64,000 bases of DNA from an uncultured Ruminococcus sp. (GCA_902772845.1 CACYCI010000018.1:2305-66304), one strand, 5' to 3'; counted from the first letter of the stretch, positions 29,345 to 44,626 are shown. Translations and numbers: made by a program. The notes: generated from the sequence alone by a model not told the origin.

Positions 29345-30409
29345 TTACTCAAGGACGATTTCCTTGCCGGACGCCGAAGAATCGTACATCGCCTGCATCA
29401 TCTTGGCGGTGATGATGACGGTGTCGATATGCGAGGGGAGCTTTTCGCCGGTGCGGATGCAGCGGACGAAAGAATCGATCTCGGTCTGGAAATGCTGGTT
29501 GGGGGTGAATTTGGGTTTGGCGGAAACGAGGCAGCCGCAAGCGGTGGTCCACAGAGTGAAATCTCCGCCGTACTGAAGTCTGATACCGCCCTTGGTGCCG
29601 ATGAAATCTATATAAGATTCGCCAATGCCAATGTTCTGCGCCCACGCGCCGTTGAAGGTGATGGTCGGGCCGGAGGTGCGGACGAAACCGGTGACAAAGT
29701 CGTCAACGTCGTAGGTGCCGTTGAGATCCTTGGTGTTTTCAGCCCACATGGATTCGTAAACGTAGTTCTTCATGTCTACGCCCAGCTTGGAGAAAGCTTT
29801 TGCCGAAACGGTCTTGGGGGTGGGGTCGCCCATGCAGTACATAACTATATCAAGATAATGTACGCCCCAGTCTATAAGAACGCCGCCGCCGGAGATCTCG
29901 TTGGTGGTGAATGCGCCGCCGAGGCCGGGGATGGAACGCTGCGAGCGGAAGCTGACGTAAACGTGGTAAACTTCGCCCAGATCGCCGCGCTGGATCATTT
30001 CGCGGATCTTGTTGACAGCCGCGTTGAAACGGTTGACAACGCCTATGTTGAGCACTTTGCCGTATTTGTGCTGCGCTTCCTGCATTTTGAGCGCGTCGGC
30101 ATAGGTGCGTGCGGCGGGTTTTTCGCACAGGACGTTCTTGCCGGCGGCAAGCGCGTCGCACGAAATGGTCATGTGCATTTTGTTGGGGGTACAAACGGAA
30201 ACGGCTTCGACTTCGGGGTCGGCGAGCACGTCGTGATAATCTACGCAAGCTTTGCCGCATTTGTATTTTTCAACGGCGGCGTCGGCTCTTTCGGGAATGA
30301 TATCGCAGAAATATTTGATCTCTACGTCGGGATTATTGAGATAAGCGGGGATATGCGCGTTGTTGGCGATTGTACCGCATCCGATGATGCCTATTTTCAT
30401 TTTTGCCAT
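29345..30409 (-). CDS. Gfo/Idh/MocA family NAD(P)-dependent oxidoreductase
   Basis: MAKMKIGIIGCGTIANNAHIPAYL Rossmann N-terminus. Start moved to ATG 30409 behind GGAGG. The track's extra 63 N-terminal codons look non-coding. Confidence 0.88.
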   Translation of the reverse strand: MAKMKIGIIGCGTIANNAHIPAYLNNPDVEIKYFCDIIPERADAAVEKYKCGKACVDYHDVLADPEVEAVSVCTPNKMHMTISCDALAAGKNVLCEKPAARTYADALKMQEAQHKYGKVLNIGVVNRFNAAVNKIREMIQRGDLGEVYHVYVSFRSQRSIPGLGGAFTTNEISGGGVLIDWGVHYLDIVMYCMGDPTPKTVSAKAFSKLGVDMKNYVYESMWAENTKDLNGTYDVDDFVTGFVRTSGPTITFNGAWAQNIGIGESYIDFIGTKGGIRLQYGGDFTLWTTACGCLVSAKPKFTPNQHFQTEIDSFVRCIRTGEKLPSHIDTVIITAKMMQAMYDSSASGKEIVLE

Positions 30410-30566
30410 TTGATATATTCCTCCAAACGTTTTTGTTACTTGAATTTTATCACATAAGCGTCGTAAAATCAATAGAAATCTCAAAAATAATGACGGCTTA
30501 TTCACCATATTTTGTGCCTTAGTGCGCAGACGGACGGCACATATGCCGTCTGTCCGCCCGTTTTGC

Positions 30567-30595
30567 TTGACAACCGCGGAAAAAGGGGGTATAAT
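30567..30595 (+). promoter_or_regulatory. Consensus sigma-A promoter upstream of radC
   Basis: TTGACA 30567-30572, 17-nt spacer, TATAAT 30590-30595. Confidence 0.55.
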
Positions 30596-30635
30596 CATTT
30601 TATAAATGAGTAACTACCGTCAGGAGGGATACGCC

Positions 30636-32299: not shown

Positions 32300-32472
32300 T
32301 ATAAAAAGAGGTAAAGAGTTTATAGATTCGCGACGGTATAAGCGACATTGAAATATTAAAGACCCTCAGAGACAAGTTCTGACCGGAATGATTCTTCAGC
32401 GCAGCAATATGCGGTATCAATCCGCATTTGCCCGTATACAGAAATAACGTCTGCACCGGCGGTAAAGATCCG

Positions 32473-32516
32473 ATACGCCCCGAGCCGATCTTTGGCTTGG
32501 GGCGTATTTTTGTTTT
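32473..32516 (+). terminator. Strong rho-independent terminator ~170 nt downstream of nrdR
   Basis: 14-bp stem atacgccccgagcc / ggcttggggcgtat, loop gatcttt, then TTTTTGTTTT. Confidence 0.7.
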
Positions 32517-32534: not shown

Positions 32535-32563
32535 TTGCAATATAAATAAAAAGGTGTTATAAT
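32535..32563 (+). promoter_or_regulatory. Candidate promoter of the four-gene envelope operon (extended -10)
   Basis: TTGCAA 32535-32540, 17-nt spacer, TGtTATAAT 32555-32563. Confidence 0.5.
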
Positions 32564-32596
32564 AATATCAAAGACATCAGAATGGAGTGGTATAGC

Positions 32597-33946
32597 TTGA
32601 TCAAAAAGATCCTTTGCCTTTTGCTGCTCGTATGCGTGTTCGCCGTTTCCTGCTCCGGCGGCAATGTTCCTGCCGAAAGCTCCGCTGCCGGATCCGACGG
32701 GTCGGACGCCGACGGCGCGGAACAGAGCGAAACGTCCCTCGGCGAAGAATCCGCCCCTGCCGATATCCCGCTGCCGCGCACGGAAGCCGAAGTCAAAAGG
32801 TACCGCTCCGGCGAAACAGATTCGGAACCCGTAGCCGTGGCTGAATACATTACCGCCGAAGACCGCCGCGGCATAGTGGGCGGCACCTGCCCCGAAGGCG
32901 CGGAAGTTTTCGCGGTGCTGCGCAGCAAGGTCATCGGCTACGCGGCAGGCAGTCACGGCACGTTCATACTCGAGCTGCCGCTGCCGCAGAGCGAAAGCGC
33001 GCTGGACGTAAAGCTTTACTGCTCCGAACAGGGGAAAAACGTGTCGACGCCCGTCACCGTAAAGCTTTCCTCTTACGCCACCGGCGAATACCCCGCGCCG
33101 GGCGTGGTCTGGGTGGGCAAAAACGGCTGGCTGTTTTTTAACAATACCGAAAAACAGTTCACCAATAACGAAGATCTTTCGCAGCGCGTGATAAACCGCA
33201 TATCCAACCGCACTCAAAGGCGCGTCGAAGCGCTCGCGAACCACGGCACCGAACTTATCTACGTGCTCATCCCCAACCCCAACGAGCTTTACCCGCAGGA
33301 AATGCCCGATTCCATACAACAGGGGAGCGTTTCCTTGCGTGAGCAGGCCGCCGCCGCGCTTTCGCAGGCGGGCGCCACGGTAATAGATATGGGGCCCGCG
33401 CTCAAAGCGCAGCTGGGTTCCGGCCGCGAGCTTTACCACCATACGGATTCGCACTGGACCGAATACGCAGCGTATTTCGCGTACAAGTCGATATGCGACG
33501 TGTTTTCAAAGCGTTTCCCCGGCGCCGCCGCGCGCGATATTTCGGAATTCGGTTTTTCCGAAGAATTCCGCGAAGCGGGCGACCTGTATTACGACCTGGG
33601 GATGCAGAAGCATCTGCTCAAATTCCGTTCCACTTTTTCGCACATAACCTTTGAAACTCCCGTCGACCGTCCCAAATACGCTTCGCCCTCCTCCACCGTC
33701 ATAAACAACGACAACATGGAATATATGCAGTTCGTCAACCCGGAAGGCGCCGGCAAGCCCTCGTTCCTCATGCTTCGCGACAGCTATTCCATAATGCTGT
33801 TCGACTGGCTTGCGGAACGCGCGTCGGTATCGTATTACAAACCGCTTTGGGAATTCGAGATCAGCGCCGAAGAGGCCGCCGCGCTCGAAGTAGACTACGT
33901 TATTGTTTTCATCTGCGATATGAACTTGAACAGCGTGCTCAAATAG
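32597..33946 (+). CDS. Lipoprotein with AlgX/AlgJ-like SGNH (DHHW-family) domain, putative polysaccharide O-acyltransferase
   Basis: Lipobox FAVSC. ELYHHTDSHWTEYAAYFAYKSICDVFSKRFP. TTG 32597 (GGAG upstream) is preferred to the track's ATG 32582, which lacks an SD. Confidence 0.72.
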   Translation: MIKKILCLLLLVCVFAVSCSGGNVPAESSAAGSDGSDADGAEQSETSLGEESAPADIPLPRTEAEVKRYRSGETDSEPVAVAEYITAEDRRGIVGGTCPEGAEVFAVLRSKVIGYAAGSHGTFILELPLPQSESALDVKLYCSEQGKNVSTPVTVKLSSYATGEYPAPGVVWVGKNGWLFFNNTEKQFTNNEDLSQRVINRISNRTQRRVEALANHGTELIYVLIPNPNELYPQEMPDSIQQGSVSLREQAAAALSQAGATVIDMGPALKAQLGSGRELYHHTDSHWTEYAAYFAYKSICDVFSKRFPGAAARDISEFGFSEEFREAGDLYYDLGMQKHLLKFRSTFSHITFETPVDRPKYASPSSTVINNDNMEYMQFVNPEGAGKPSFLMLRDSYSIMLFDWLAERASVSYYKPLWEFEISAEEAAALEVDYVIVFICDMNLNSVLK

Positions 33947-33983
33947 GCATTGAGCTTACGCATTTTATGAAAGGAACATTACC

Positions 33984-36554
33984 ATGAAAAGACTTGTCTC
34001 ACTCGTGCTCGCGCTGGTGATCGTGCTTTCGGCGGCTCCCGCCGTCTTTGCAAACGTATCTCTCGCATCACAGACGCCGGAATCGTATTTCTGGCTTTCC
34101 GCGGCAAACGGCGTTACGCCTTCGGTCTCGTTCGTCATACCGGAATCCGCCATTCCCGCTTCGGGCGTGATAACGCTGCGCGCGCGGGTGCGTTTCGGCA
34201 ACGATCTTTATGTGCAGGATCACGGTATAGCTTACGTCAACTGCTATTCTTACTCCGACATCGAACACGTCGGCAATTTCAGCTATCTTATCAACTTCAC
34301 CGATTTTGCAAAATCCAACGCCTCGTTTGCCGAAAACGGAGGCGCTCCGGTCCTGGGCGAGTGGACGGATTTCACTTATGATTTCGATATAGGCGACGCC
34401 GCTTACGCGCTGATAAAGGAAGACACGCGCGTTTCGGTCTCCGACGGCAGGGCGACGTGCCGCGCGCTCGCCGTAAGCGTGGGGTATTATCTCGCCGAAG
34501 GCACGATCGACATAGCGTCGGTATCCGCCGAATACGGCGGCAGCGCCTTCTGGGCGGTCGATTTTTCCGCGTTCGACCCGGCAGCCGACAATTCGCGGCT
34601 CTATCTGTCTTCGCTTTCCGGCATATCCGCCGAAACCGAAGGGATCAACTGGGGCCACGGGACTTCCGGTCAGCAGCCCGCTTCCGAGCTGCTCGGCGAT
34701 TTCGATAACAGCGGCGTGTTCAATTCCGCCGACGCTATATACCTGCTGCGTTACGTACTGTTCGGCGAAGAATATCCCATCACCCAGTCCGGCGACGTCG
34801 ATCTCGACGGCAAAGAGACTTCGGCCGACGCCATACTCACGCTGAGATGCGTGCTTTTCCCGGACGATTATCTGGCGCTGCGCACGCTCGAAAACGTAGC
34901 GCTCGGTAAAAAATATACAGCCAAATCGCGCAATTACCGTTCCGATCCGTACGGTGACAGCAACGACGATCAGGGCATCCGCCCGAGGTTCAAGCTCACC
35001 GACGGACTTGTTGCCAACACCGGGGATTCGGCGCGCATCGCCGGCTATTCCACCGATACGCTTTCGGTCATAGTCGATCTCGAACACACCTGCCTGCTCA
35101 AGGGAGCAAGCATAGATATCTGGGGCGGACAGTTCGGTATCTCCACTCCGGACAAGATAAAGGTAACGTATTCGGTTTCCGACGACGGCATCAGCTTCAC
35201 CAAGCTCGGCACCGTCAGCATCAGGGCATCCGCCGTTACCGCGGAGGGCGACTGGAAAAAAGCCGAATTCAAGCTTAAGATAAACGACGTCCGCGCAAGG
35301 TTCCTGCGTGCGGATATCGTCACGCCCGACTGGGTCTGGGCTTCCGAACTGACCGCCGAAGGTTACACGCTTTCCGGCGAAGGCCGGCTTTCGGATATCC
35401 CCAAGGTGTATGTCGATACCAACGGCGCGGAGATAATCAAGAGCGATTATCGCGAATGCTCCATAACCGTTTACGATCCCACCGGCAAGTATTCTACCAT
35501 CGTCGACCCTCAGGCGACCATAAAGGTGCGCGGCAACTCCACCTCGTCCGGCGCAAAACAGCCGTATAACATCAAATTCAACAAAAAGCAGAACGTGCTG
35601 GGGTTCGGCAAGTGCAAAAAGTGGTATCTCATAGCCAATATGTACGATAAGACGCAGCTCCGCAACAAGCTCGCCTACGGCCTTGCCGACGATATCGGCA
35701 TGGCGTACGTCCAGCAGTCTGAATTCTGCGAACTGTACGTAAACGGCGAATACCGCGGTATGTATATGTTTTGCGAATCCATAGGCGTGGGCGACACCCG
35801 CGTGGATATAGACGTCGAAGGCAACGAATTCCTGTTCGAATACGAACCGTGGCCGCAGTATTCCAACGACGAATGGTTCACCACCCCGCGCTACAACATC
35901 ATACTCGGGCTCAACGATCCCGAGATCCCCACCGCCGATCAGCGCGCCTATATGCAGGAATTCTTCACCGGCATGGAAGACGCGATCCATTCGCAGAAAT
36001 ACGAAGAGATAATAAAATACGTAGATCTTCAGTCGTTCATCGACGCATTCATAGTACAGGAATTCTTCAAGCAGGTCGATTACGGCACAAGCTCCACGCG
36101 CTTTTATATCAAGGACGGTATGCTCTACGAAGGCCCCGTATGGGATTTCGACCTTTCTTCCGGCAACTGCTCTTCCACCTATTACCAAGCTTACAATAAC
36201 GTAAACGGCTCCGGGCTTTCGTGGCAGGGCAGACATTGCTACTCCATCTGGAACGGCCGCCTGTTCAGAGTCCCGCAAATAATGGATATGGTCAAGGCGC
36301 GCTATAAAGAGCTGCAGCCGTATATCGTCAATATCTACCAAGACAACGAGCTTGGCAAGAATCAGATCGACCGCCTGCTCGAGGGATATCAAAAAGATAT
36401 CGACCGCAACTACACCCGCTGGTACACCGACGTCATTTACAGCTCGCTCGAAAAAGAGCTCGTCGACGGCACTTACGAAGCGGAGATAGATTATCTGCGC
36501 GACTGGTTCAAAAACCGCAACGAGTGGATGCTTTCCGATTTCGGCATAGAATAA
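33984..36554 (+). CDS. Secreted multidomain protein: signal peptide, dockerin, discoidin-like module, C-terminal CotH kinase-like domain
   Basis: 856 aa. Signal peptide ...PAVFA|N. Dockerin segments GDFDNSGVFNSADAIYLLRYVL and GDVDLDGKETSADAILTLRCVL. CotH-type KQPYNIKFNKK, LYVNGEYRGMYMFCESI, GPVWDFDLSSGN. Confidence 0.85.
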   Translation: MKRLVSLVLALVIVLSAAPAVFANVSLASQTPESYFWLSAANGVTPSVSFVIPESAIPASGVITLRARVRFGNDLYVQDHGIAYVNCYSYSDIEHVGNFSYLINFTDFAKSNASFAENGGAPVLGEWTDFTYDFDIGDAAYALIKEDTRVSVSDGRATCRALAVSVGYYLAEGTIDIASVSAEYGGSAFWAVDFSAFDPAADNSRLYLSSLSGISAETEGINWGHGTSGQQPASELLGDFDNSGVFNSADAIYLLRYVLFGEEYPITQSGDVDLDGKETSADAILTLRCVLFPDDYLALRTLENVALGKKYTAKSRNYRSDPYGDSNDDQGIRPRFKLTDGLVANTGDSARIAGYSTDTLSVIVDLEHTCLLKGASIDIWGGQFGISTPDKIKVTYSVSDDGISFTKLGTVSIRASAVTAEGDWKKAEFKLKINDVRARFLRADIVTPDWVWASELTAEGYTLSGEGRLSDIPKVYVDTNGAEIIKSDYRECSITVYDPTGKYSTIVDPQATIKVRGNSTSSGAKQPYNIKFNKKQNVLGFGKCKKWYLIANMYDKTQLRNKLAYGLADDIGMAYVQQSEFCELYVNGEYRGMYMFCESIGVGDTRVDIDVEGNEFLFEYEPWPQYSNDEWFTTPRYNIILGLNDPEIPTADQRAYMQEFFTGMEDAIHSQKYEEIIKYVDLQSFIDAFIVQEFFKQVDYGTSSTRFYIKDGMLYEGPVWDFDLSSGNCSSTYYQAYNNVNGSGLSWQGRHCYSIWNGRLFRVPQIMDMVKARYKELQPYIVNIYQDNELGKNQIDRLLEGYQKDIDRNYTRWYTDVIYSSLEKELVDGTYEAEIDYLRDWFKNRNEWMLSDFGIE

Positions 36555-36587
36555 CGTTTTTTCCGCAAAAGAAAGGACCGTTTTGAA

Positions 36588-38087
36588 ATGAAAAGGGAAT
36601 TCCTGCGAGAAGACGGCTTTGTGTTCAGGCATCCGTTCGCCGTTACCGCGCTTGCCTGCTTTGCTTCGGCGCTGCTGTTCGATTATTCCGCAAACCGGCT
36701 GACCACGCTTTCGGCGATCCTGCTTGCAGCGGCAGCCGCGGCGCTTGTCGCGCTCGCGGTGTACTGGCTCGTCAACGGCATGCTCACGCCGAAACGCGCC
36801 GCGTTCCTTATTCTTGCGTTTTCGTTCCTTATAAAGCTCATATACGTGCTTTGCACCGGCGTCGGCGAACGCCAGCACGACGTCGGCTCGTTCAAGCTGA
36901 CGTCCAACGGGCACGCCGGAATGATAATGCGTATGTGGAACGGCGAATTCTTCCCGCCCAAAATAACCAGCATGTGGTATCATCCGCCGCTCCATTACGC
37001 GCTGGAAGCGCTGTGGATGCGGCTGATCACCCTGCGCGGCGTGGCGTTTGAAACCGCGCGCTGCTATGCCACCGCGCTCACGCTGTTCTATTCGTGCGCT
37101 TCCGCGCTCGTGTGCCTTAAACTGTTCGGGGAATTCAAGTTAAAAGAGACCACCCGCAATATGTGCCTGGCGCTCGTCGCGTTCCACCCTTCGTTCATCA
37201 TACTTTCCGCAAGTTATAATAACGATATGCTTTCGGTGCTGTTCATGCTCGCCGCGCTGCTTTTCGCGGTGCGCTGGTACCGCAGACCGGGGTACGGCAA
37301 CACGGTCGCGCTGGCGCTGGCAATAGGGCTGGGCATGATGACAAAGCTTTCGGCGGCGTACGTCGCGCCCGCCACGGCGGTGCTGTTCCTTGTAAAGTTC
37401 GTCCAAAGCAAAGGCGAAAGGGCGCGCCTGTTCCGTCTGTTCTGCGTTTTCGGCGCCGTTTGTATCCCGCTCGGGACATGGTGGTCGTTTTATCTGCGTA
37501 TCGCGCACGGGCTGCCGTTCGGCTACGTTATGCGGCTGGATAATTCGCTGCCGCAGTATATCGGGCAGTATTCTGTCGTTCAGCGCCTGTTCGGGATACC
37601 CCACAGCTTTTCCGAAGGCATCTGGTTCGCCCGCGGCGACTACGGATATTCGTTCTACGAATACAACATACCTTCCGCCATAGTCAAGACCTCGGTCTTC
37701 GGCGAATGGCAGATCGGCAAGGGCGGCGCGTTCACCGAACTGCTCGCACACGCGCTGGTCATACTCAACGCCGCGCTCATTCTGTTTTCGCTCTGGTGCG
37801 CGGCAGGCGCGCTGTTCAAAAAGAAAAACGTGCCGCAAGGCGCGGAAAAATGGTTCATATATCTGTTTTGGCTCACGGTGATGGGGCTGTACGTCAAGTT
37901 CTGCTTTGATTTTCCGCACAACTGCACCATGGATTTCCGCTATATCGTCCCGACCACGGCGGTCGGCGCGCTGCTTATCGGCGTGTATACCGACTCGGCG
38001 GAAAGCAAATGGTTAAAACGCTGCGCCGCCGGCGCGATATACGCGTTCTGCGCGGTCAGCGCGCTGCTTTACTCTGTTTGCGCCTGA
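36588..38087 (+). CDS. GT-C fold integral membrane glycosyltransferase (PMT_2/ArnT-like)
   Basis: 499 aa with >10 hydrophobic segments. First external loop has GERQHDV and YHPPLHY. GLGMMTKLSA as in GT39/GT83-type enzymes. Confidence 0.72.
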   Translation: MKREFLREDGFVFRHPFAVTALACFASALLFDYSANRLTTLSAILLAAAAAALVALAVYWLVNGMLTPKRAAFLILAFSFLIKLIYVLCTGVGERQHDVGSFKLTSNGHAGMIMRMWNGEFFPPKITSMWYHPPLHYALEALWMRLITLRGVAFETARCYATALTLFYSCASALVCLKLFGEFKLKETTRNMCLALVAFHPSFIILSASYNNDMLSVLFMLAALLFAVRWYRRPGYGNTVALALAIGLGMMTKLSAAYVAPATAVLFLVKFVQSKGERARLFRLFCVFGAVCIPLGTWWSFYLRIAHGLPFGYVMRLDNSLPQYIGQYSVVQRLFGIPHSFSEGIWFARGDYGYSFYEYNIPSAIVKTSVFGEWQIGKGGAFTELLAHALVILNAALILFSLWCAAGALFKKKNVPQGAEKWFIYLFWLTVMGLYVKFCFDFPHNCTMDFRYIVPTTAVGALLIGVYTDSAESKWLKRCAAGAIYAFCAVSALLYSVCA

Positions 38088-38122
38088 TATGATATTAACC
38101 GTTAAAAAGAAGGGAACGGGTC

Positions 38123-39661
38123 ATGGAAAACAAAAAGACCGCTGTTATAATAGGCGCCGGCCCCGCGGGGCTGACCGCCGCTTACGAGCTGCTCACCAAG
38201 ACGGATATACACCCCGTCATACTTGAAGAAAGCGGCGAGATCGGAGGCATTTCGCGCACGGTGGTATATAAAGGCAACCGCATGGACATAGGCGGCCACC
38301 GCTTTTTCACCAAAGACGACCGCGTCGACGAGCTGTGGCGGCATATAATGCCGGTCCAGGGCGCGCCTTCGTTCGACGACGCGCTGCTCGGGCGCGAAAA
38401 GCCGCTTGCTCCCGGCGGGCCGGATCCCGAAAAGACCGACCGCGTCATGCTGGTGCGCACCCGCGTTTCGCGCATATATTTCCTTAAAAAATTTTTTGCA
38501 TACCCAATTTCGCTTTCGTGGCAGACCATACGCAACATGGGCTTTTGGCGCACGCTCAAAGCCGGCTGCGGCTATATGTGGTCGGCGGTCTTCAAAAAGA
38601 AAGAGACCAACCTGCGCAATTTCTATATAAACCGTTTCGGCAAGCCGCTTTACGAAATGTTTTTCGAAGACTACACCGAAAAAGTCTGGGGCGTGGATCC
38701 CAAAAACATTTCCGCCGAATGGGGCGCGCAGCGCGTAAAAGGGCTTTCGCTGTTCAAGGCGGTCTGGGCAAAGATCAGCGCGCCGTTCAGAAAGAAAGAT
38801 CCCAAAAAAGTCGAAACTTCGCTTATAGAGCAATACGTGTACCCCAAAAAGGGCCCGGGCCAGCTTTGGGAAGCGCTTGCCGACGAGGTCCGCTCGCTCG
38901 GCGGCGAGATCATAATGAACGCACGCGTCGACGACGTCCGTTCCGAAAACGGCAGGATAGTTTCCGTCCGCGCCGGCGGAAAAGAATATTCGGGCGATTA
39001 TTTCATTTCTTCAATGCCCGTAAAGGATCTGTGCGACAGTATGCACGGCGTCCCCGAAGAGGTGCTCGCCGTCACACACGAGCTGCCTTACCGCGATTTT
39101 ATCACCGTGGGGCTGCTGTGCGACAAGCTTAAGATACGCAATACCACCAAAATGAAGACGCTGGGCGATATAGTCCCCGATTGCTGGATCTATGTGCAGG
39201 AACGCGACGTCCGGCTGGGCAGACTTCAGATATTCAACAACTGGTCGCCGTATATGGTCGCCGATCCCGAGCACACGGTGTGGATGGGGCTCGAGTATTT
39301 CTGCACCGAAGGCGACGATCTGTGGAATATGCCGGATGATGAGTTTATAGGATTCGCCAAGCGCGAAGCGGCGCACATAGGCGTGGTGGACGAAGCGGAT
39401 ATAAAAGACGCGGTCCGCGTGAAGGTGCGCAAGGCGTACCCTTCGTATTTCGGCACTTACGAACGTTTTTCCGTCGCGCGCGAATGGCTGCAAAGCTTTG
39501 TAAACCTTTACTGCGTGGGCAGAAACGGCCAGCACCGCTATAACAACATGGACCATTCCATGCTTTCGGCAATGGTCGCGGTCGATTCCATACGCACGGG
39601 CAAAGACCGGCTCGCCTGCTGGGACGTGAATACCGAAAAAGAATATCACGAAAAGAAATGA
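38123..39661 (+). CDS. FAD-dependent oxidoreductase, UDP-galactopyranose-mutase/amine-oxidase-like fold
   Basis: 512 aa with no signal peptide. [16 protein letters not shown]...EESGEIGG dinucleotide fold, [17 protein letters not shown] (UGM-like YTxKxWG). Confidence 0.78.
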
Positions 39662-39676
39662 CTCCGCAAAAAAACG

Positions 39677-39716
39677 CTGCCGGAAAAGGAAAGCCCTTTT
39701 CCGGCAGATTTTTTTC
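39677..39716. terminator. Bidirectional rho-independent terminator
   Basis: 13-bp stem ctgccggaaaagg / ccttttccggcag, with an A-run upstream and TTTTTTT downstream. Lies between convergent genes. Confidence 0.7.
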
Positions 39717-40428: not shown

Positions 40429-40467
40429 GTGTTAGACAATATATGACAGATGAACGGAGTCAGCTTT

Positions 40468-43400
40468 ATGAAACGCTTTGCTTCTTTCTGGTTTTCGATC
40501 ATTATTCTGTGCTGCAGTTTATTTCCGGCTTTGTCTGTTCGCGTGTCTGCGGGAAGTTACAACGGCTTTTACTATACAAACAGGTACGGCGAACTTGCTA
40601 TAACGGGGTATTACGGCAGCGATCCGTATCCCTCCATCCCTTCTGAAATAGACGGGAAACCGGTTGCGTTTATTGAAGACGCCGCCTTTCAATACAATCG
40701 CACCATTAAAGGGATGACCATTCCAAATACCGTCTGGGGCATCGGCATCGCCGCTTTTGAGCAATGTGTGAATCTTTCCGTTATCACCTTGCCCGAAAGC
40801 GTCTGCTATGTCGGTTGGGCGGCTTTTGCCCGCTGCACTTCTCTCAGGGAGGTCAATTATCGACCCAAGAACGTGGGTGGCATAAACGCTCAGGCGTTTG
40901 AGGATTGTACCGCACTTGAAAAGGTCACGTTTGCCAATGGAGCTGAAGGCGATTTTAACGGCGGCACATTTAAGGGCTGCAAGTCTCTTAAATCTATATC
41001 CCTTCCTAAAAACATCACTTCTATATCGCCAAGCCTTTTTGAGGGCTGCACCTCTCTTGAGGCGCCATCTTTGCCCAAAGGGATTTCATATATATGTGAC
41101 AAAGCCTTTTCCGGCTGCACATTCAAGAGCATCGAGCTTCCTGAAGGGCTGCTGGGGATCGGAGCAGAAGCATTCAAAGACTGTACGTTGCTCAAAAAGA
41201 TCAACATCCCCAAAAGCGTGGTAAGTATAGGGAAAGACGCGCTTTACAACACCGCTCTGTATCGTTCTTTGACTTGGTCGAACGGCCTTCTTTATTATGA
41301 TAATTATTTGCTGAAGGCAAATTCCGAACATGGTAAGAGCGTTAGCGTAAAAGCCGGGACTCTACTCATTGCCGACGGCGTTTTTGAAAACGACACACGT
41401 CTGGAACGCATCGTCGTCTGTGACAGTGTAAAAAGAACGGGTCGATCTGCGTTTTCCGGATGTGTAAACCTTAAAGATGTTGTTCTGCCGTACGGCCTTG
41501 AAAGTATAGACGTGGAAGCGTTTTCCGGATGTATAAACCTTAAAGAGGTTGATTTGCCGGGCGGTCTTGTAAGTATTGGCTGGGATGCTTTCAGCGATTG
41601 TTCTTCTTTGCAGGCGGTCGCTATTCCAAAAAATGTGCGGGAAATAGACTCCAACGCTTTTGCGGGCTGCACGAGCCTGAAAGAGATCACTATTCCTATC
41701 GGAGTGGAACGTCTTGGTGAAACGGTCTTTCAAAACTCCGGTATAAGGGATATCTATTGCGAGATCAACGAAGAACCGCGCGGATGGAGCTATCATTGGG
41801 ATTCGGTAATAACCGGTTATGACTATTCTGTGGATGATTACGGTGTACATCCGCCGATCTACGAAAAAATAGGCGCGAAAATACATTGGGGGGAAAAGCA
41901 GATCGACATCAAAGCTTGCGCTCTCAAAGAGCTTACGGCAGTCGATTTCCTTGCTTTTTCGATACTTGCATACGAAACAGAAGACACGGATATCAAGAGC
42001 ACCGTTTACAGTTTGCTCGGATCCAAGGGCCTTTTAAAACCAGAATCAAAATACGGAAAAACAGAGTATTCGTTCAGTGAGATCTGCAGCGGAATATACG
42101 GGTGGTACGTTTCCGATGTGAAAGAGACAAATATGGAAAGCGGATTTACGGGGATCGCTTTCTGCAACGGGAACGGCGAATACGTTATCGCTTATGAAGG
42201 GTCTAATGGCGACTATGGCCCGCTTTCATTTAATGATAGGAATTCATTTAACGATTGGTATATGAACGATTTTCCAATGTATATGGGGAGATTGACCGCC
42301 CAAATGCCTCAGGCGATGGACTTTTATCTCAAGATCCTTTCCGAAGCGAAAAAGCATTCTGACAATGCGGTTCAAAGTATAGCTGTTACAGGGCATTCGC
42401 TCGGCGGCGGGTTGGCAGACGCGGTATCGTGTTTTTCCGGCAGTTACGGTGAAACCTTCAACGCGGCGCCTTTTATAAACGTGGCGTACAGTACCATGCC
42501 GGAATTTATGGCTCCCAACTTCCACGGCGTGGACAGATGGAATTATTACGACCATGTTAACGAAGCTGATATTTTTGTGGGCGGCTGGAATTACTATGAG
42601 AAGAATTGCATTATTCACAAAAACGACGGCTATAACGAAGGCGGTTTGTTCGGGCCTCATAAATTGAGTTCGTTTTTCGCCGCGCGCGGGGCCGACGGCA
42701 AGGTGACTCTCACAGATTCGGTGCAGGTAAAGGCCACTTTGAACATAGGAAGAAAACAGACCCCGTTACAGACCCCGTTGCAACCCGCAAAAAAAATAGC
42801 CGATTTTCTAAAAGCAATAACTCCGATCAGCGGCGCTATTATCAATATGTATCACGACAACGGCGATTTGTATCTGGGCAACTGCGGCAATGATAGTATA
42901 GCCGCTCCGTATAACACAAAAAGGATCTTTTTCGGAGGCGACGGCGACGATCTTCTGGACGGAAGCGCTGCGGGATCGAGTGTATTCGTCGGCGGTGAAG
43001 GCAAAGATGTGCTTATCGGCAGCAAAAACAACGACATTTATCTCATATCAAAGGACGATCTGACGGAAGGCGACAGCGTCCGCGTGGGCTCCTATTGTGA
43101 TACGATTTCCGATCGCGGCGGAATTGATGGGATATACCTTTACGGTTTTGCGGCGAGCGACAGTATTAACGTGACCGAAGACGACAAGTTTGTATACGTC
43201 AACCTCAACGGCACTCCGATAGCCAAAGTGGTAAAATACAATCGTGGGGACAAGCTCATAATCAAAGCGTTCGATTATCATTTCAAAGAATTGTTCAGCG
43301 CGATTGAAGTCACAAATCCGTTCTTACGTCTGTTTGGTATGCATTTCAAGTTCGCGTGTCCTATCGATGTCAGGATCAAGGATCAGCAGGGCAGAGTCGT

Positions 43401-44097
43401 GTATAAAGTGCCCGACTTTCCGGGGATCTATACCGAAGATTTCGGCGTCTTTACTGTATACGAAGAAAACGGCGAAACAGTGAGAGAATTTGAGCTTGCC
43501 GAAGGCTATTGCCCGGTGATATCAGGTACCGGCGACGGAACGATGAACGTATATTTTGAAGATAATACCGGCGGCGCCGATACAACGTTTGGCAGCACGG
43601 ATATCGCTGTTACTCGCGATTTTTCCGCAGAGATCAATATAGAAGATCCAAACAATGCGGTGCTGAATATTGATCATGATTCCAACGGCAAATTCGATAC
43701 GTCTGTCAAACTTGTTAGCGTAAGAGCGACTGTGACGGTAACGGCAGACAACCCTCAGTTTGCTTCCGAGTATGAGACGATAGAAACGGTCATCGGAGAC
43801 TCCATAAGGATCAGCGCATACGTCGACCCTTTGGCAGAATTTTTGGGATGGTACGAAAACGACGTTTTCATATCAAATGAGTTGACGCTGATATATAATG
43901 TCAAAGGCGACGCCCGGATAAAAGCTGTTTACGGAGATTCTCCGTCAGCTCCCGTAACGCCTTCATCCCCTTTGCTGCCCGGCGGGACCGCTTCCTCCGG
44001 CATGGTGATAGGAATAGTATTCGGTTCGCTGATCGCGGTACTTACGGCCGTGTTTGCCGCGCTTGTGTTAAAAAAGGCAAAAAACGCCCGCGAATGA
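40468..44097 (+). CDS. Surface protein: signal peptide, BspA-type leucine-rich repeats, class-3 lipase-like domain, RTX-type Ca-binding motifs, Listeria-Bacteroides-type repeat, C-terminal TM anchor
   Basis: 1209 aa from ATG 40468 (GGAG SD). LRR units (F.GC.SL..I.IP) at ~40600-41760. GHSLG nucleophile elbow at 42391-42405. GGDGDDLLD and GGEGKDVLI at 42934-43017. FLGWYENDV at ~43840. TM at 43999-44070 plus a KKAKNARE tail. Confidence 0.85.
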   Translation: MKRFASFWFSIIILCCSLFPALSVRVSAGSYNGFYYTNRYGELAITGYYGSDPYPSIPSEIDGKPVAFIEDAAFQYNRTIKGMTIPNTVWGIGIAAFEQCVNLSVITLPESVCYVGWAAFARCTSLREVNYRPKNVGGINAQAFEDCTALEKVTFANGAEGDFNGGTFKGCKSLKSISLPKNITSISPSLFEGCTSLEAPSLPKGISYICDKAFSGCTFKSIELPEGLLGIGAEAFKDCTLLKKINIPKSVVSIGKDALYNTALYRSLTWSNGLLYYDNYLLKANSEHGKSVSVKAGTLLIADGVFENDTRLERIVVCDSVKRTGRSAFSGCVNLKDVVLPYGLESIDVEAFSGCINLKEVDLPGGLVSIGWDAFSDCSSLQAVAIPKNVREIDSNAFAGCTSLKEITIPIGVERLGETVFQNSGIRDIYCEINEEPRGWSYHWDSVITGYDYSVDDYGVHPPIYEKIGAKIHWGEKQIDIKACALKELTAVDFLAFSILAYETEDTDIKSTVYSLLGSKGLLKPESKYGKTEYSFSEICSGIYGWYVSDVKETNMESGFTGIAFCNGNGEYVIAYEGSNGDYGPLSFNDRNSFNDWYMNDFPMYMGRLTAQMPQAMDFYLKILSEAKKHSDNAVQSIAVTGHSLGGGLADAVSCFSGSYGETFNAAPFINVAYSTMPEFMAPNFHGVDRWNYYDHVNEADIFVGGWNYYEKNCIIHKNDGYNEGGLFGPHKLSSFFAARGADGKVTLTDSVQVKATLNIGRKQTPLQTPLQPAKKIADFLKAITPISGAIINMYHDNGDLYLGNCGNDSIAAPYNTKRIFFGGDGDDLLDGSAAGSSVFVGGEGKDVLIGSKNNDIYLISKDDLTEGDSVRVGSYCDTISDRGGIDGIYLYGFAASDSINVTEDDKFVYVNLNGTPIAKVVKYNRGDKLIIKAFDYHFKELFSAIEVTNPFLRLFGMHFKFACPIDVRIKDQQGRVVYKVPDFPGIYTEDFGVFTVYEENGETVREFELAEGYCPVISGTGDGTMNVYFEDNTGGADTTFGSTDIAVTRDFSAEINIEDPNNAVLNIDHDSNGKFDTSVKLVSVRATVTVTADNPQFASEYETIETVIGDSIRISAYVDPLAEFLGWYENDVFISNELTLIYNVKGDARIKAVYGDSPSAPVTPSSPLLPGGTASSGMVIGIVFGSLIAVLTAVFAALVLKKAKNARE

Positions 44098-44128: not shown

Positions 44129-44626
44129 ATGAAAAGATCGTTTGCTTTATTGCTCGCCGTGCTGACCGCGGCGGCGTTCCTGGGCTTTGCGGCGCTGGCG
44201 GAAACTCCGTCTACGCTTCCCGGGCAGGAGACATCCGGCGAAATGTGCCGTATAAGCATCAGCAACAAAGAATGCTTTTTCGTGTACGCCGGCACGCGTG
44301 ACACCGTCCCCAACCAACTCGCGGCGGGTACCGAATTCAGTTTCAACATAGTGTTCGACCCGGGCAAGAGCTCAAAGACCGTAACGGTTTATGCCAACGG
44401 GACCGAGATACCCCTTGTCGACGGCAAGTACACCTACACCATCAACGAAGACACCGTCTTCGACGTCGTCACTGACGGCAGCCGTCCTTCCGCATCGTCC
44501 GGAAAAGGGCTCAGCGTAGGCGAAATACTGCTTATCGCGGGCGGCGTGGCGCTTGTGGGCGTGGTCGCGTGGATAGTGCTTGCCAACAAACGCGAAGAAA
44601 AGAAAGCGGGGAACAATAAGAAATGA
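44129..44626 (+). CDS. Small exported protein with C-terminal membrane anchor (hypothetical)
   Basis: 165 aa. Signal peptide ...GFAALA|E, ~100-aa beta-rich middle, TM ILLIAGGVALVGVVAWIVL, basic tail. AAGGAG SD. Confidence 0.62.
   Translation: MKRSFALLLAVLTAAAFLGFAALAETPSTLPGQETSGEMCRISISNKECFFVYAGTRDTVPNQLAAGTEFSFNIVFDPGKSSKTVTVYANGTEIPLVDGKYTYTINEDTVFDVVTDGSRPSASSGKGLSVGEILLIAGGVALVGVVAWIVLANKREEKKAGNNKK

What the first reader, a model, noticed from the sequence alone, without database searches (positions are those of the whole stretch)
32535..39716. Candidate novel envelope-modification operon: AlgX/J-like acyltransferase lipoprotein, dockerin-CotH kinase-like protein, GT-C glycosyltransferase and UGM-like flavoenzyme
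Seen: four same-strand genes are separated by gaps of 37, 33 and 35 nt, with no terminator in any gap. One extended -10 promoter lies upstream (32535-32563) and one strong bidirectional terminator lies at the end (39677-39716). Predicted topology is complementary: a cytoplasmic flavoenzyme (no signal peptide, YTEKVWG motif as in UDP-galactopyranose mutases), a polytopic GT-C enzyme that acts on the outer face, an outer-face SGNH/DHHW lipoprotein, and a secreted CotH protein. Established: GT-C enzymes use lipid-phosphate-linked sugars outside the membrane. UGM-type flavoenzymes make furanose donors. AlgX/AlgJ O-acylate exopolysaccharide. CotH is an atypical protein kinase fold. Inference: together they could synthesise, attach and decorate (acylate, possibly phosphorylate) a furanose-containing surface glycan or glycoprotein. 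I do not know of a described pathway with this combination.
Basis: partly seen in the sequence, partly recalled or inferred. Interest (0 to 1): 0.65.

Follow-up and report, generated by a model that had tools for sequence, protein, structure and literature searches.

The report
Furanose-type surface glycosylation operon in Clostridia
Four co-transcribed genes of a gut or rumen Clostridia bacterium pair a sugar-ring-contracting flavoenzyme with a membrane glycosyltransferase, plus an acyltransferase-like lipoprotein and a secreted kinase-like protein, and the enzyme/transferase pair recurs, uncharacterised, across many bacterial phyla.

Summary
Four same-strand genes (32582-39661) are separated by gaps of 37, 33 and 35 nt with no structure in them. 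A strong terminator lies on each side and an extended -10 promoter lies upstream.

All four family calls survive profile and fold tests:
- An AlgX/AlgJ-type SGNH lipoprotein with an intact D-H-S triad.
- A secreted CotH protein with a sub-threshold dockerin.
- A compact GT-C glycosyltransferase (PMT_2).
- A flavoenzyme of the unnamed PRK07208 family, whose closest solved relatives are eukaryote-type UDP-galactopyranose mutases and which keeps their catalytic residues.

The four genes are syntenic in at least five related lineages. Most of these add a fifth 12-TM gene that this window lacks.

The evolutionary core is narrower and much wider spread. In 82 loci from several phyla, the flavoenzyme sits directly beside a large polytopic membrane protein in 56 (about 6 expected), often with GtrA. 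One protein fuses mutase-like, GT2 and GT-C domains.

Best reading: an extracytoplasmic glycosylation system that adds a furanose sugar, with lineage-specific acylation (AlgX-like) and CotH accessories. No biochemistry exists and I found no paper describing it. GtrA, GT2 and MBOAT partners are absent from the window. I rate it a new variant of a known kind.

The parts
32472..32508 (+). Intrinsic terminator of the upstream nrdR unit. It marks the 5' boundary of the operon.
   Evidence: 17-bp stem followed by a T-run. Folds at -30.3 kcal/mol, z = -5.7.
32535..32563 (+). Candidate extended -10 sigma-70 promoter (TTGCAA-17-TGtTATAAT).
   Evidence: Matches 10 of 12 consensus positions plus the TG. 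Sequence read. The leader to the ATG would be only about 12 nt.
32582..33946 (+). AlgX/AlgJ-type SGNH-like lipoprotein, a putative glycan O-acyltransferase or esterase. It has a lipobox at Cys24, an N-terminal beta-rich domain and a catalytic domain from about residue 172.
   Evidence: PF16822 ALGX, E = 1e-22. PDB matches AlgJ 4o8v (8e-6) and AlgX 7ula. D289, H291 and S401 are invariant, as is the lipobox Cys.
33984..36554 (+). Secreted multidomain CotH protein: signal peptide, N-terminal domain, dockerin-like module (aa 234-297, nt 34683-34874), unassigned beta-rich domain, and CotH kinase-like domain (aa 513-849, nt 35520-36530).
   Evidence: PF08757, E = 3.6e-40, covering the full model 1-322/322. 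Dockerin_1 scores 18.2 bits, below the gathering score of 22.9. PDB dockerins match at E about 1e-3. The architecture is conserved in the orthologues.
36588..38087 (+). Compact GT-C fold glycosyltransferase (PMT_2 / 'GT39-like'), with about 12 TM helices and an invariant Asp98 in the first outward loop.
   Evidence: PF13231 scores 29.3 bits against a gathering score of 26.1. AF2 model pLDDT 85.6. The top 34 Foldseek hits are all GT-C enzymes: STT3, PglB, Pmt4, ALG9, ArnT, AftA. Invariant residues.
38123..39661 (+). Cytoplasmic FAD enzyme of the PRK07208 family, UDP-galactopyranose-mutase-like. Putative sugar pyranose/furanose mutase.
   Evidence: NF005546 scores 784 bits against a cut-off of 418. 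Best PDB sequence hits are UGMs: 4dsg at 2e-14, 3ute at 5e-13. Foldseek top hits are UGMs at TM 0.64-0.66. UGM catalytic residues are invariant.
39677..39707 (.). Bidirectional intrinsic terminator. It marks the 3' boundary of the operon.
   Evidence: 13-14 bp stem with T-runs on both strands. Folds at -25 kcal/mol, z = -4.6.

Best explanation
The four genes form one transcription unit that modifies a cell-surface glycan or glycoprotein from the outer face of the membrane.

Core (inferred from conservation). The cytoplasmic flavoenzyme is a UGM-like mutase. It converts an activated pyranose sugar, most simply UDP-galactopyranose, into its furanose form. The furanose is then carried on a polyprenyl phosphate. 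A GT2-type synthase and a GtrA-type flippase, both encoded outside this window, would make and flip that carrier. The compact GT-C enzyme transfers the sugar to an extracytoplasmic acceptor. The acceptor could be a wall polymer or a Ser/Thr-rich secreted protein.

Lineage-specific additions. The AlgX/AlgJ-like lipoprotein, with an intact Asp-His-Ser triad, O-acylates or de-acylates the same polymer at the outer face. The secreted dockerin-bearing CotH protein is an accessory that binds, or possibly phosphorylates, the product or its protein carrier.

What is shown: gene order, family and fold assignments, conserved catalytic residues, and conserved neighbourhoods and fusions.

What is inferred: mutase activity, sugar identity, the lipid-linked intermediate, the acceptor, and any acylation or phosphorylation.
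For: Operon anatomy.

Flavoenzyme.
- The best solved relatives by sequence are more than 25 UGM entries, ahead of any other enzyme.
- By fold, the top 24 hits are UGMs.
- Residues aligned to A. fumigatus UGM are all invariant in 14 family members at 64-86% identity: H63->H59, F66->F62, R182->R204, W315->W355, Y317->Y357, R327->R367, Y419->Y439, R447->R467, Y453->Y473 and N457->N475. Several of these UGM residues were targets of the mutant structures listed (R182K, R327A/K, H63A, Y317A, F66A).

GT-C. Pfam PMT_2 scores above its cut-off. The confident model hits only GT-C enzymes. Asp98 is invariant in the predicted outer loop.

Linkage between the two.
- A membrane protein of at least 400 aa and at least 6 TM helices lies immediately next to the flavoenzyme gene in 56 of 82 loci. 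The background predicts 7.6%, about 6 loci. It lies within two genes in 62 of 82, against 14.6% expected.
- 39 of 54 small TM neighbours are GtrA.
- 27 of the 76 polytopic neighbours scanned match PMT_2 and 12 match PMT.

Fusions.
- P0380 joins UGM-like, GT2 and PMT_2 domains in one ORF inside a Wzx/GT2/GT4 glycan cluster.
- P0271 fuses GT4 to the flavoenzyme, and P0347 fuses an NDP-sugar epimerase/dehydratase to it.
- P0254, P0263 and P0385 fuse it to polytopic domains.

Four-gene synteny appears in five further lineages. The ALGX triad and lipobox are invariant.

Precedents. Multi-component GtrA/GT-C glycosylation, and pentofuranose three-component systems with a cytoplasmic sugar-converting auxiliary enzyme (PMC11127046, PMC8035078). 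A secreted CotH encoded beside a Gram-positive Pel exopolysaccharide locus, whose deletion changed Pel levels and reduced aggregation (PMC12345266).
Against: - No GtrA, GT2 or MBOAT gene is found anywhere in the 64-kb window.
- GT2 genes are rare near the flavoenzyme in general: 7 of about 82 loci. The step that would make a lipid-linked furanose is therefore unaccounted for.
- The flavoenzyme fails the canonical UGM models. TIGR00031 scores 22 bits against a cut-off of 304, and PF03275 gives no hit.
- Protoporphyrinogen oxidases are almost as close by fold: E = 2.5e-20 against 6.7e-22.
- The substrate-binding domain of the model has low confidence (pLDDT 42-60 over residues 120-240).
- Alignment to the UDP-contacting and flap UGM residues (Y104, Q107, N207) is absent or unreliable, so the nucleotide and sugar are unknown.
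- CotH is missing from the sister clade. Unlinked CotH and ALGX paralogues exist in the same window, so those two genes may be functionally independent.
- There is no expression or biochemical data.
Confidence: 0.5

Rival explanations
1. The mutase acts on a lipid-linked sugar. The UGM-like enzyme does not act on a nucleotide sugar. It converts a polyprenyl-(di)phosphate-linked hexopyranose, made by a housekeeping synthase, into the furanose form on the cytoplasmic face. This would parallel DprE1/E2, or the ORF13 epimerase of the pentofuranose systems. GtrA then flips the product and the GT-C uses it.
For: - The conserved module is GtrA + flavoenzyme + GT-C, with no dedicated GT2 in most loci.
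- In the pentofuranose systems, the sugar-converting enzyme is proposed to act after transfer to the lipid carrier (PMC11127046).
- The flavoenzyme is directly fused to polytopic membrane domains in P0254, P0263 and P0385.
- Alignment to the uridine-contacting residues of eukaryotic UGM is not recovered.
Against: - Both diphosphate-binding arginines of UGM are invariant, which fits an NDP-sugar.
- Fusions to a GT4 Leloir transferase and to an NDP-sugar epimerase/dehydratase point to nucleotide-sugar chemistry.
- In the triple fusion P0380, a GT2 sits between the mutase-like and GT-C domains. That is the order expected if the GT2 uses the mutase product.
- I know of no precedent for a lipid-linked sugar mutase.
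Confidence: 0.15
2. The flavoenzyme is a redox enzyme, not a mutase. It is an oxidase or dehydrogenase of the amine-oxidase / PPOX / CrtI superfamily. It would oxidise a sugar hydroxyl (DprE1-like, for epimerisation) or modify the polyprenyl carrier. On this reading the system adds a pyranose or modified sugar rather than a furanose.
For: - Pfam assigns Amino_oxidase at E = 9e-17.
- Protoporphyrinogen oxidases and phytoene desaturases follow the UGMs closely in the fold search.
- Fusion and neighbourhood with GFO/IDH/MocA sugar oxidoreductases occur (P0390; 6 of 67 neighbours; one lies in this window at 29345-30598).
- The mycobacterial cluster GtrA-like Rv3789 / FAD enzyme DprE1 / GT-C AftA is a known analogue (my own knowledge, and PMC11127046).
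Against: - UGM entries outrank every oxidase by sequence: 2e-14 against 5.6e-6 or weaker.
- The His-loop GGH, the YTEKVWG motif, and the Arg and Tyr residues that bind the sugar diphosphate in UGM are all invariant. None of these are features of PPOX or CrtI.
- The hosts are anaerobes, where O2-dependent oxidases are unlikely (inference).
Confidence: 0.15
3. The system performs protein O-glycosylation rather than wall-polymer decoration. The GT39-like GT-C attaches a furanose-containing glycan to Ser/Thr-rich linkers of secreted, dockerin/cohesin-type surface proteins. The dockerin-CotH protein is either a substrate or a partner in that surface complex.
For: - The GT-C matches the PMT/PMT_2 protein-O-mannosyltransferase models, and NCBI names its homologues 'glycosyltransferase family 39'.
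- Pmt4 and the oligosaccharyltransferases are among the best fold hits.
- Cellulosomal glycoproteins of C. thermocellum and B. cellulosolvens carry Galf-containing O-glycans (PMC7278926).
- The operon's CotH carries a dockerin-like module. A neighbouring relative locus encodes an LRR protein with a dockerin.
Against: - The GT-C lacks the MIR and luminal domains of true PMTs, and PF02366 is not hit by the window protein.
- ArnT (lipid acceptor) and AftA (polysaccharide acceptor) are equally good fold matches.
- The same flavoenzyme/GT-C pair occurs in Bacteroidales, Treponema, Planctomycetes and a betaproteobacterium, none of which have cellulosomes.
- The dockerin is below threshold.
Confidence: 0.2
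4. The operon is one of convenience. Only the GT-C and the flavoenzyme work together. The AlgX-like lipoprotein and CotH are independent envelope or secreted proteins that merely share a promoter in this clade.
For: - CotH and ALGX are absent from 75 of the 82 wider loci.
- ALGX is divergently transcribed in the L001/L005/L008 clade.
- Unlinked paralogues of both lie in the same window, at 14837-16273 and 46842-48392. The latter is coupled to a GH78 rhamnosidase.
- No MBOAT partner for the AlgX-like protein is nearby.
Against: - ALGX stays adjacent to the GT-C gene across two clades even though its protein identity has dropped to 47-50%.
- CotH keeps its position between ALGX and the GT-C, and its full four-domain architecture, in five lineages at 53-75% identity. 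It is even duplicated in place in L091.
- The gaps are tight and free of terminators.
Confidence: 0.25

Closest known systems
UDP-galactopyranose mutase (Glf/UGM), especially the eukaryote-type enzymes of Aspergillus fumigatus (3ute) and Trypanosoma cruzi (4dsg)
   Same: It shares the three-domain flavoenzyme fold. It keeps the histidine loop GGH, the YTxKxWG motif, the two diphosphate-binding arginines and the active-site Tyr/Trp/Asn residues. Its size, about 510 aa, matches eukaryotic UGMs.
   Different: Identity is only 19-20%. It fails TIGR00031 and PF03275 and instead belongs to the unnamed NCBIfam PRK07208 group. Alignment to the uridine-contacting residues is not recovered. It has an invariant C-terminal tail that the UGMs lack. 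Its genomic partners are GtrA and GT-C rather than Leloir galactofuranosyltransferases.
Three-component (GtrA/GtrB/GtrC-type) extracytoplasmic glycosylation systems, including the pentofuranose systems of Kelly et al. 2024 (PMC11127046) and the mycobacterial Rv3789/DprE1-E2/AftA arabinan pathway
   Same: In relatives, a small GtrA-type flippase and a GT-C transferase are encoded next to a cytoplasmic enzyme that changes the sugar before export. The logic is the same: a furanose is added outside the membrane.
   Different: The auxiliary enzyme here is a UGM-like flavoprotein, which implies a hexofuranose made by ring contraction. It is not a PRPP-derived pentofuranose made by a UbiA-type synthase and epimerases. 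The lipid-sugar synthase is usually not in the locus. This window has neither GtrA nor GT2.
AlgX/AlgJ alginate O-acetyltransferases and PatB-type wall-polysaccharide O-acetyltransferases
   Same: It matches PF16822. The DxHW and (R/G)DS motifs give an Asp-His-Ser triad. It is located extracytoplasmically.
   Different: It is a lipoprotein with an extra N-terminal domain. It has no AlgX-type C-terminal CBM that could be detected. No MBOAT (AlgI/PatA) donor-shuttling partner lies within 64 kb.
CotH atypical kinases: the Bacillus spore-coat CotH (5jd9), cellulosomal dockerin-CotH proteins, and S. intermedius SIR_1594 in the Pel locus
   Same: It gives a full-length PF08757 match. It is secreted. 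It carries a dockerin-like module, as cellulosomal CotH proteins do (PMC12484212). It is encoded in a surface-glycan locus, as SIR_1594 is (PMC12345266).
   Different: The host lineage's sporulation status is unknown. Two additional N-terminal domains have no family assignment. No substrate is known. The link to a GT-C/mutase module has not been reported in the papers I could search.

Membership tests
Canonical UDP-galactopyranose mutase (TIGR00031 / PF03275 GLF) | Scores above the curated family cut-off | tested here: not met
   TIGR00031 scores 22.3 bits against a cut-off of 303.75, matching only the motif region 168-199. The window protein gives no PF03275 hit at E <= 0.01.
Canonical UDP-galactopyranose mutase (TIGR00031 / PF03275 GLF) | UGM fold | tested here: met
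   The top 24 Foldseek PDB hits are UGMs (E = 6.7e-22, TM 0.62-0.66). PPOX follows closely at 2.5e-20. Model pLDDT is only 74.
Canonical UDP-galactopyranose mutase (TIGR00031 / PF03275 GLF) | Catalytic and substrate residues: His loop, two diphosphate-binding Arg, active-site Tyr/Trp | tested here: met
   H59, F62, Y184, W189, R204, W355, Y357, R367, Y439, R467, Y473 and N475 align to AfUGM/TcUGM residues. All are invariant in 14 homologues.
Canonical UDP-galactopyranose mutase (TIGR00031 / PF03275 GLF) | Pyranose/furanose mutase activity on UDP-Gal | not testable with these tools
   This needs an enzyme assay.
NCBIfam PRK07208 group (NF005546, 'hypothetical protein') | Scores above the curated cut-off over the full length | tested here: met
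   784.3 bits against a cut-off of 418, covering residues 2-512. The family has no assigned function.
GT-C glycosyltransferases (PMT_2 / GT39-GT83-like) | Family HMM above the gathering score | tested here: met
   PF13231 scores 29.3 bits against 26.1. Sources name the homologues 'glycosyltransferase family 39'.
GT-C glycosyltransferases (PMT_2 / GT39-GT83-like) | GT-C membrane fold | tested here: met
   The AF2 model has pLDDT 85.6 and pTM 0.89. Foldseek hits 1-34 are all GT-C enzymes: STT3, PglB, AglB, Pmt4, ALG9, ArnT, AftA.
GT-C glycosyltransferases (PMT_2 / GT39-GT83-like) | Conserved acidic residue in the first extracytoplasmic loop | tested here: met
   Asp98 in the RQHDVG motif is invariant in 35 homologues. 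It lies between helices 68-89 and 109-117. Its outward orientation is inferred from the positive-inside rule.
GT-C glycosyltransferases (PMT_2 / GT39-GT83-like) | Use of a polyprenyl-phosphate-linked donor | not testable with these tools
   Inferred from family membership only.
Protein O-mannosyltransferase proper (GT39, PF02366 + MIR domains) | PMT domain hit and luminal MIR domain | tested here: not met
   The window protein gives no PF02366 or MIR hit. It is 499 aa with no large soluble loop.
AlgX/AlgJ SGNH-like O-acetyltransferases (PF16822) | Family HMM above cut-off | tested here: met
   81.6 bits against 26.5. AlgJ 4o8v matches at E = 8e-6.
AlgX/AlgJ SGNH-like O-acetyltransferases (PF16822) | Asp-His-Ser catalytic triad | tested here: met
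   TD289SH291WT aligns to TDTHWT in AlgJ and GDQHWT in AlgX. D289, H291 and S401 (RDS) are invariant in 8 sequences.
AlgX/AlgJ SGNH-like O-acetyltransferases (PF16822) | Co-encoded MBOAT acetyl-donor partner (AlgI/PatA) | tested here: not met
   The only polytopic ORFs in the 64-kb window are the PMT_2 protein, an RnfD and a YfhO-like protein. No MBOAT appears in the relatives' clusters either.
CotH kinase family (PF08757) | Full-length family HMM match | tested here: met
   138.9 bits against 23.8, covering model positions 1-322/322. The motifs VRGNST..KxPYNIK and WD(F/M)DLS are invariant across orthologues and a paralogue.
CotH kinase family (PF08757) | Kinase activity and substrate | not testable with these tools
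   The only solved relative, 5jd9, aligns over 90 residues at E = 0.002.
Type I dockerin (PF00404) | Family HMM above the gathering score, with two Ca-binding repeats | tested here: inconclusive
   18.2 bits against 22.9, E = 0.003. PDB dockerins 1daq and 2mte match at E about 1e-3. Two repeats, DFDNSGVFNSADAIYLLRYVL and DVDLDGKETSADAILTLRCVL, are visible in the sequence.
Three-component GtrA/GtrB/GtrC glycosylation system | GtrA flippase and GT2 lipid-sugar synthase encoded with the GT-C | tested here: not met
   jackhmmer finds no GtrA and no GT2 ORF anywhere in the window. In relatives, GtrA lies within 6 kb in 49 of 86 loci, but GT2 appears in only 7 loci.

The most novel reading that the evidence does not exclude
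The UGM-like PRK07208 flavoenzyme, GtrA and a GT-C transferase form a widespread, undescribed hexofuranose counterpart of the three-component extracytoplasmic glycosylation systems. It would be present in Clostridia, Bacteroidales, spirochaetes, Planctomycetes, Kiritimatiellae and some Proteobacteria. It would use a lipid-linked hexofuranose donor, possibly made by ring contraction on the lipid carrier itself. That donor type has not been reported. The window's operon would be a Clostridia-specific elaboration that adds outer-face acylation and a dockerin-anchored CotH kinase acting on the glycan or its protein carrier.
Probability: 0.3. Interest if true: 0.8.

Novelty: new variant of a known kind. 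Interest (0 to 1): 0.6.

Why it matters
Furanose sugars are absent from mammals, so the enzymes that make and attach them are antigenic determinants and drug targets.

Hexofuranoses (Galf) are known to enter glycans only through cytoplasmic Leloir transferases that use UDP-Galf. Extracytoplasmic addition has been shown only for pentofuranoses.

A conserved mutase-like enzyme wired to GtrA and GT-C in many gut and rumen phyla would point to a second, outside-the-membrane route for hexofuranose addition. It would also give a function to a large 'hypothetical' family: 1,336 50%-identity clusters at E <= 1e-30.

It could further explain how Clostridia make the Galf-containing glycans seen on cellulosomal proteins. 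And it gives secreted bacterial CotH proteins, whose substrates outside spores are unknown, a concrete candidate context.

Tried and rejected
- **Origin of the window.** Exact-sequence look-ups of the window's own proteins returned no contig. A cluster look-up only says 'Clostridia bacterium' MAG.
- **Literature.** Searches for PRK07208, for UGM with GtrA or GT-C, for lipid-linked Galf, and for C. thermocellum with UGM found nothing that describes this module. The Actinoplanes gsf paper was irrelevant.
- **Riboswitch or leader RNA upstream.** No Rfam match.
- **The fifth gene (X680/X685).** No Pfam hit and no PDB sequence hit even with a profile. Profile-profile comparison to the PMT_2 family gives only 61% probability over the C-terminal half. 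'Second GT-C' therefore stays a guess. It is absent from the window.
- **Discoidin/CBM reading of the CotH middle domain.** Not supported by Pfam at E <= 1.
- **GT2 as a regular neighbour.** Rejected: 4 of 67 mid-size neighbours, and 7 loci overall.
- **Long C-terminal extensions on many family members.** These turned out to be low-complexity E/K/A/P-rich tails, not catalytic domains. Apparent fusions in P0004, P0007 and P0070 were uninformative.
- **Fold search as a discriminator between mutase and oxidase.** It could not separate them cleanly. The argument rests on conserved residues.
- **L093 gene calls.** The public calls showed three minus-strand genes inside the cluster. tblastn shows these are shadow ORFs over a CotH gene.

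Full report
**1. Observation**

The region holds four + strand ORFs: 32582-33946 (454 aa), 33984-36554 (856 aa), 36588-38087 (499 aa) and 38123-39661 (512 aa). They are separated by 37, 33 and 35 nt.

Genes 2-4 have good ribosome-binding sites. The consensus scan reports the extended -10 promoter at 32535-32563 as one of the three best of 16 sites in 10 kb (7.2 expected). It also reports a bidirectional terminator at 39677-39707 and a further strong terminator at 32472-32508, which ends the upstream nrdR unit.

Folding confirms both terminators (-25 and -30 kcal/mol; z = -4.6 and -5.7). The three internal gaps are no more structured than shuffles. No Rfam family matches the region.

One caveat: the -10 box ends 18 nt before the first ATG, leaving a leader of about 12 nt with no Shine-Dalgarno sequence. 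The start codon itself is conserved in orthologues. Co-transcription remains an inference.

**2. What the four proteins are**

*Gene 1.* It matches PF16822 (AlgX SGNH-like) at 1e-22, and the AlgJ and AlgX structures by sequence. Its TDSHWT motif aligns to the Asp/His motif of AlgJ and AlgX. D289, H291 and S401 are invariant in seven orthologues and a paralogue, as is the lipobox Cys24.

*Gene 2.* It has a Sec signal peptide and a full-length CotH domain (PF08757, 3.6e-40, model 1-322/322). A dockerin-like module at residues 234-297 is visible as two Ca-loop repeats. It matches solved dockerins at E about 1e-3 but scores below Pfam's cut-off (18.2 against 22.9 bits). Two other N-terminal domains have no family.

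*Gene 3.* It passes PF13231 PMT_2 (29.3 against 26.1 bits). With 35 homologues it gives a confident model (pLDDT 85.6). The first 34 Foldseek hits of that model are all GT-C enzymes: STT3, PglB, AglB, Pmt4, ALG9, ArnT and AftA. Asp98, in an RQHDVG motif in the first predicted outer loop, is invariant. The protein lacks the PMT and MIR features of true protein O-mannosyltransferases.

*Gene 4.* It is a full-length member of the NCBIfam PRK07208 group (NF005546, 784 bits, named 'hypothetical protein').
- Its best solved relatives by sequence are UDP-galactopyranose mutases. The eukaryote-type enzymes come first (4dsg at 2e-14, 3ute at 5e-13), and bacterial UGMs match the YTEKVWG motif region.
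- The model is of moderate quality (pLDDT 74). Its top 24 fold hits are UGMs, but protoporphyrinogen oxidases follow closely, so fold alone does not decide.
- Residue conservation does. These UGM residues align to residues that are invariant in 14 family members: H63, F66, R182, W315, Y317, R327, Y419, R447, Y453 and N457 of the A. fumigatus enzyme. Several of them were the subject of the mutant structures listed.
- The protein fails the canonical Glf models. I therefore treat it as a sister family that probably works like a UGM, not as a Glf member.

**3. Synteny**

Closer relatives found through the GT-C protein show the cluster ALGX-CotH-PMT_2-X685-flavoenzyme on one strand. This holds in three lineages (L088-90, L091, L092), and L091 has a tandem CotH duplicate.

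L093 has ALGX-CotH-PMT_2-flavoenzyme with no fifth gene, exactly as in the window. Its public gene calls had hidden the CotH gene under shadow ORFs.

Identities to the window proteins are 86-89% (flavoenzyme), 58-68% (GT-C), 53-75% (CotH) and 65-78% (ALGX). In these relatives the cluster follows pgk-tpi; in the window it follows nrdR.

A sister clade (L001, L005, L008) has ALGX divergently transcribed, then PMT_2-X680-flavoenzyme, and no CotH.

X680/X685 is a 12-TM protein with no Pfam or PDB match. It has a weak profile similarity to the PMT_2 family (61% probability). It is absent from the window.

**4. The wider, conserved core**

A scan of one genome per species returned 80 loci. They encode flavoenzymes 55-78% identical to the query, from Clostridia, Bacteroidales, Treponema, Thermoguttaceae, Kiritimatiellae and the betaproteobacterium Viridibacterium.
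- In 82 non-redundant loci, a membrane protein of at least 400 aa and at least 6 TM helices lies immediately next to the flavoenzyme gene in 56, and within two genes in 62.
- Genes further away in the same loci give expectations of 7.6% and 14.6%.
- Of 54 small TM neighbours, 39 are GtrA (PF04138). jackhmmer finds GtrA within 6 kb in 49 of 86 loci.
- Of the polytopic neighbours, 27 match PMT_2 and 12 match PMT. Fifteen loci have X680-like proteins.
- GT2 genes are rare: 4 of 67 mid-size neighbours, and 7 loci overall.
- ALGX and CotH occur only in the window's own clades.

An exhaustive search of 1.84 billion cluster representatives finds 1,336 with E <= 1e-30. Among the best 150 are informative fusions.
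- P0380 joins the mutase-like domain, a GT2 domain and a PMT_2 GT-C domain in one 1409-aa ORF. That ORF sits in a Wzx/GT2/GT4/GFO-IDH-MocA glycan cluster.
- P0271 is GT4 + mutase-like. P0347 is NDP-sugar epimerase/dehydratase + mutase-like. P0390 is GFO/IDH/MocA + mutase-like.
- P0254, P0263 and P0385 fuse the mutase-like domain to polytopic domains.

**5. Mechanism**

The simplest model uniting these facts is an extracytoplasmic glycosylation system.
1. The cytoplasmic mutase-like enzyme makes the furanose form of an activated sugar.
2. A GT2 loads it on polyprenyl phosphate.
3. GtrA flips it.
4. The GT-C transfers it to a surface acceptor.

In the window's clade, an outer-face AlgX-like lipoprotein and a secreted dockerin-CotH have been recruited to the locus. 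They presumably act on the same product.

The domain order of P0380, and the fusions to nucleotide-sugar enzymes, favour an NDP-sugar substrate. The general absence of a dedicated GT2 keeps open a variant in which the mutase acts on a lipid-linked sugar. That would parallel the post-transfer epimerases of the pentofuranose systems (PMC11127046).

A redox role for the flavoenzyme is less likely, given the UGM-specific residues, but it is not excluded.

The acceptor is unknown. The PMT-like nature of the GT-C, the dockerin module, and the known Galf-containing O-glycans on cellulosomal proteins (PMC7278926) make protein O-glycosylation a reasonable sub-hypothesis. However, the pair also occurs in phyla without cellulosomes.

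A precedent for a secreted CotH in a surface-glycan locus exists in Streptococcus intermedius. There, deleting SIR_1594 changed Pel levels and reduced aggregation (PMC12345266).

**6. Weak points**
- The window has no GtrA, GT2 or MBOAT.
- Unlinked CotH and ALGX paralogues lie in the same window, and the CotH paralogue is coupled to a rhamnosidase.
- The substrate-binding domain of the flavoenzyme model has low confidence.
- The identity of the sugar and nucleotide cannot be read from the sequence.
- There are no expression or biochemical data.

**7. Comparison and novelty**

The parts are members of known families: AlgX-like, CotH, GT-C, and a UGM-like sister family. The logic resembles three-component glycosylation systems and the mycobacterial GtrA-like/DprE1/AftA cluster.

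What I could not find described is the pairing of a UGM-like flavoenzyme with GtrA and GT-C, which implies hexofuranose addition outside the membrane. I also could not find its combination with AlgX-like and CotH proteins. Six literature searches were negative, in a library that lacks most subscription journals.

I rate it a new variant of a known kind. Interest is 0.6. The four-gene operon is a clade-specific elaboration. It points, however, to a large, phylogenetically broad, uncharacterised module that is directly testable in cultured carriers (L065, L086).

Noticed in passing
window 46842-48392 (with 44623-46869): A second, shorter CotH protein (516 aa, PF08757 at 1e-29, lipoprotein-like N-terminus). 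Its start overlaps the end of a GH78 alpha-L-rhamnosidase gene by 28 nt, which suggests translational coupling of a CotH with a glycoside hydrolase.
   Followed up: partly
window 14837-16273: A paralogous AlgX-like lipoprotein (478 aa, PF16822 at 6e-19, 27% identical to gene 1). It has the same D-H-S triad and lipobox. It lies directly after an EF-G-like GTPase gene and has no MBOAT nearby.
   Followed up: partly
window 57298-59133: Another GT-C-type membrane protein in the window: YfhO-like (PF09586 at 9e-9, 611 aa, about 9 TM helices). This is the family used for teichoic-acid glycosylation in Firmicutes.
   Followed up: no
window 40450-44097: A 1215-aa surface protein with BspA-type LRR_5 repeats, a DUF6792 lipase-like domain and a C-terminal TM anchor. 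It lies in a patch of lower G+C (0.47 against about 0.55). In relative L006 an LRR_5 protein with a weak dockerin occupies the equivalent position.
   Followed up: no
L088:10580-12637, L091:11634-13703, L092:11655-13721, L001:7949-9991 (absent from window 38088-38122): A conserved 12-TM protein of about 680 aa with no Pfam or PDB match sits between the GT-C and the flavoenzyme in most relatives. In several distant loci it is the flavoenzyme's only polytopic neighbour. It is cleanly missing in the window and in L093. Its similarity to the PMT_2 family is weak (hhalign 61%).
   Followed up: partly
window 39620-39658 (flavoenzyme residues 500-512): The extreme C-terminus of the flavoenzyme (W..VN.E..YHE.K) is invariant across 14 homologues at 64-86% identity. 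It has no counterpart in the UGM alignments. It may be a partner- or membrane-contact motif.
   Followed up: no
proteins P0250, P0252, P0261, P0273, P0293-P0351: About 19 of the 150 best cluster representatives of the flavoenzyme family carry C-terminal tails of 400-1600 residues. The tails are low-complexity, rich in E/K/A/V/P, and repetitive. They have no TM segments and no Pfam domains.
   Followed up: partly
L094:4398-8627 (protein P0380): A single 1409-aa ORF fuses the mutase-like, GT2 and PMT_2 GT-C domains. It is followed by genes for a Wzx-type flippase, a GFO/IDH/MocA protein, two GT2s and a GT4. This is a complete glycan cluster built around the same flavoenzyme family.
   Followed up: partly
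L093:5864-8368: The public gene calls on this contig list three minus-strand 'genes' (53, 163 and 392 aa) where tblastn shows an intact + strand CotH gene. They are arginine-rich shadow ORFs, an annotation artefact that hid the synteny.
   Followed up: yes
window 29345-30598 (- strand): A GFO/IDH/MocA oxidoreductase gene lies 2 kb upstream of the operon. The same family is fused to the flavoenzyme in P0390 and appears among its neighbours in 6 of the 67 mid-size neighbours scanned (probably one lineage) and in L094. This could be coincidence or a sugar-oxidoreductase link.
   Followed up: no
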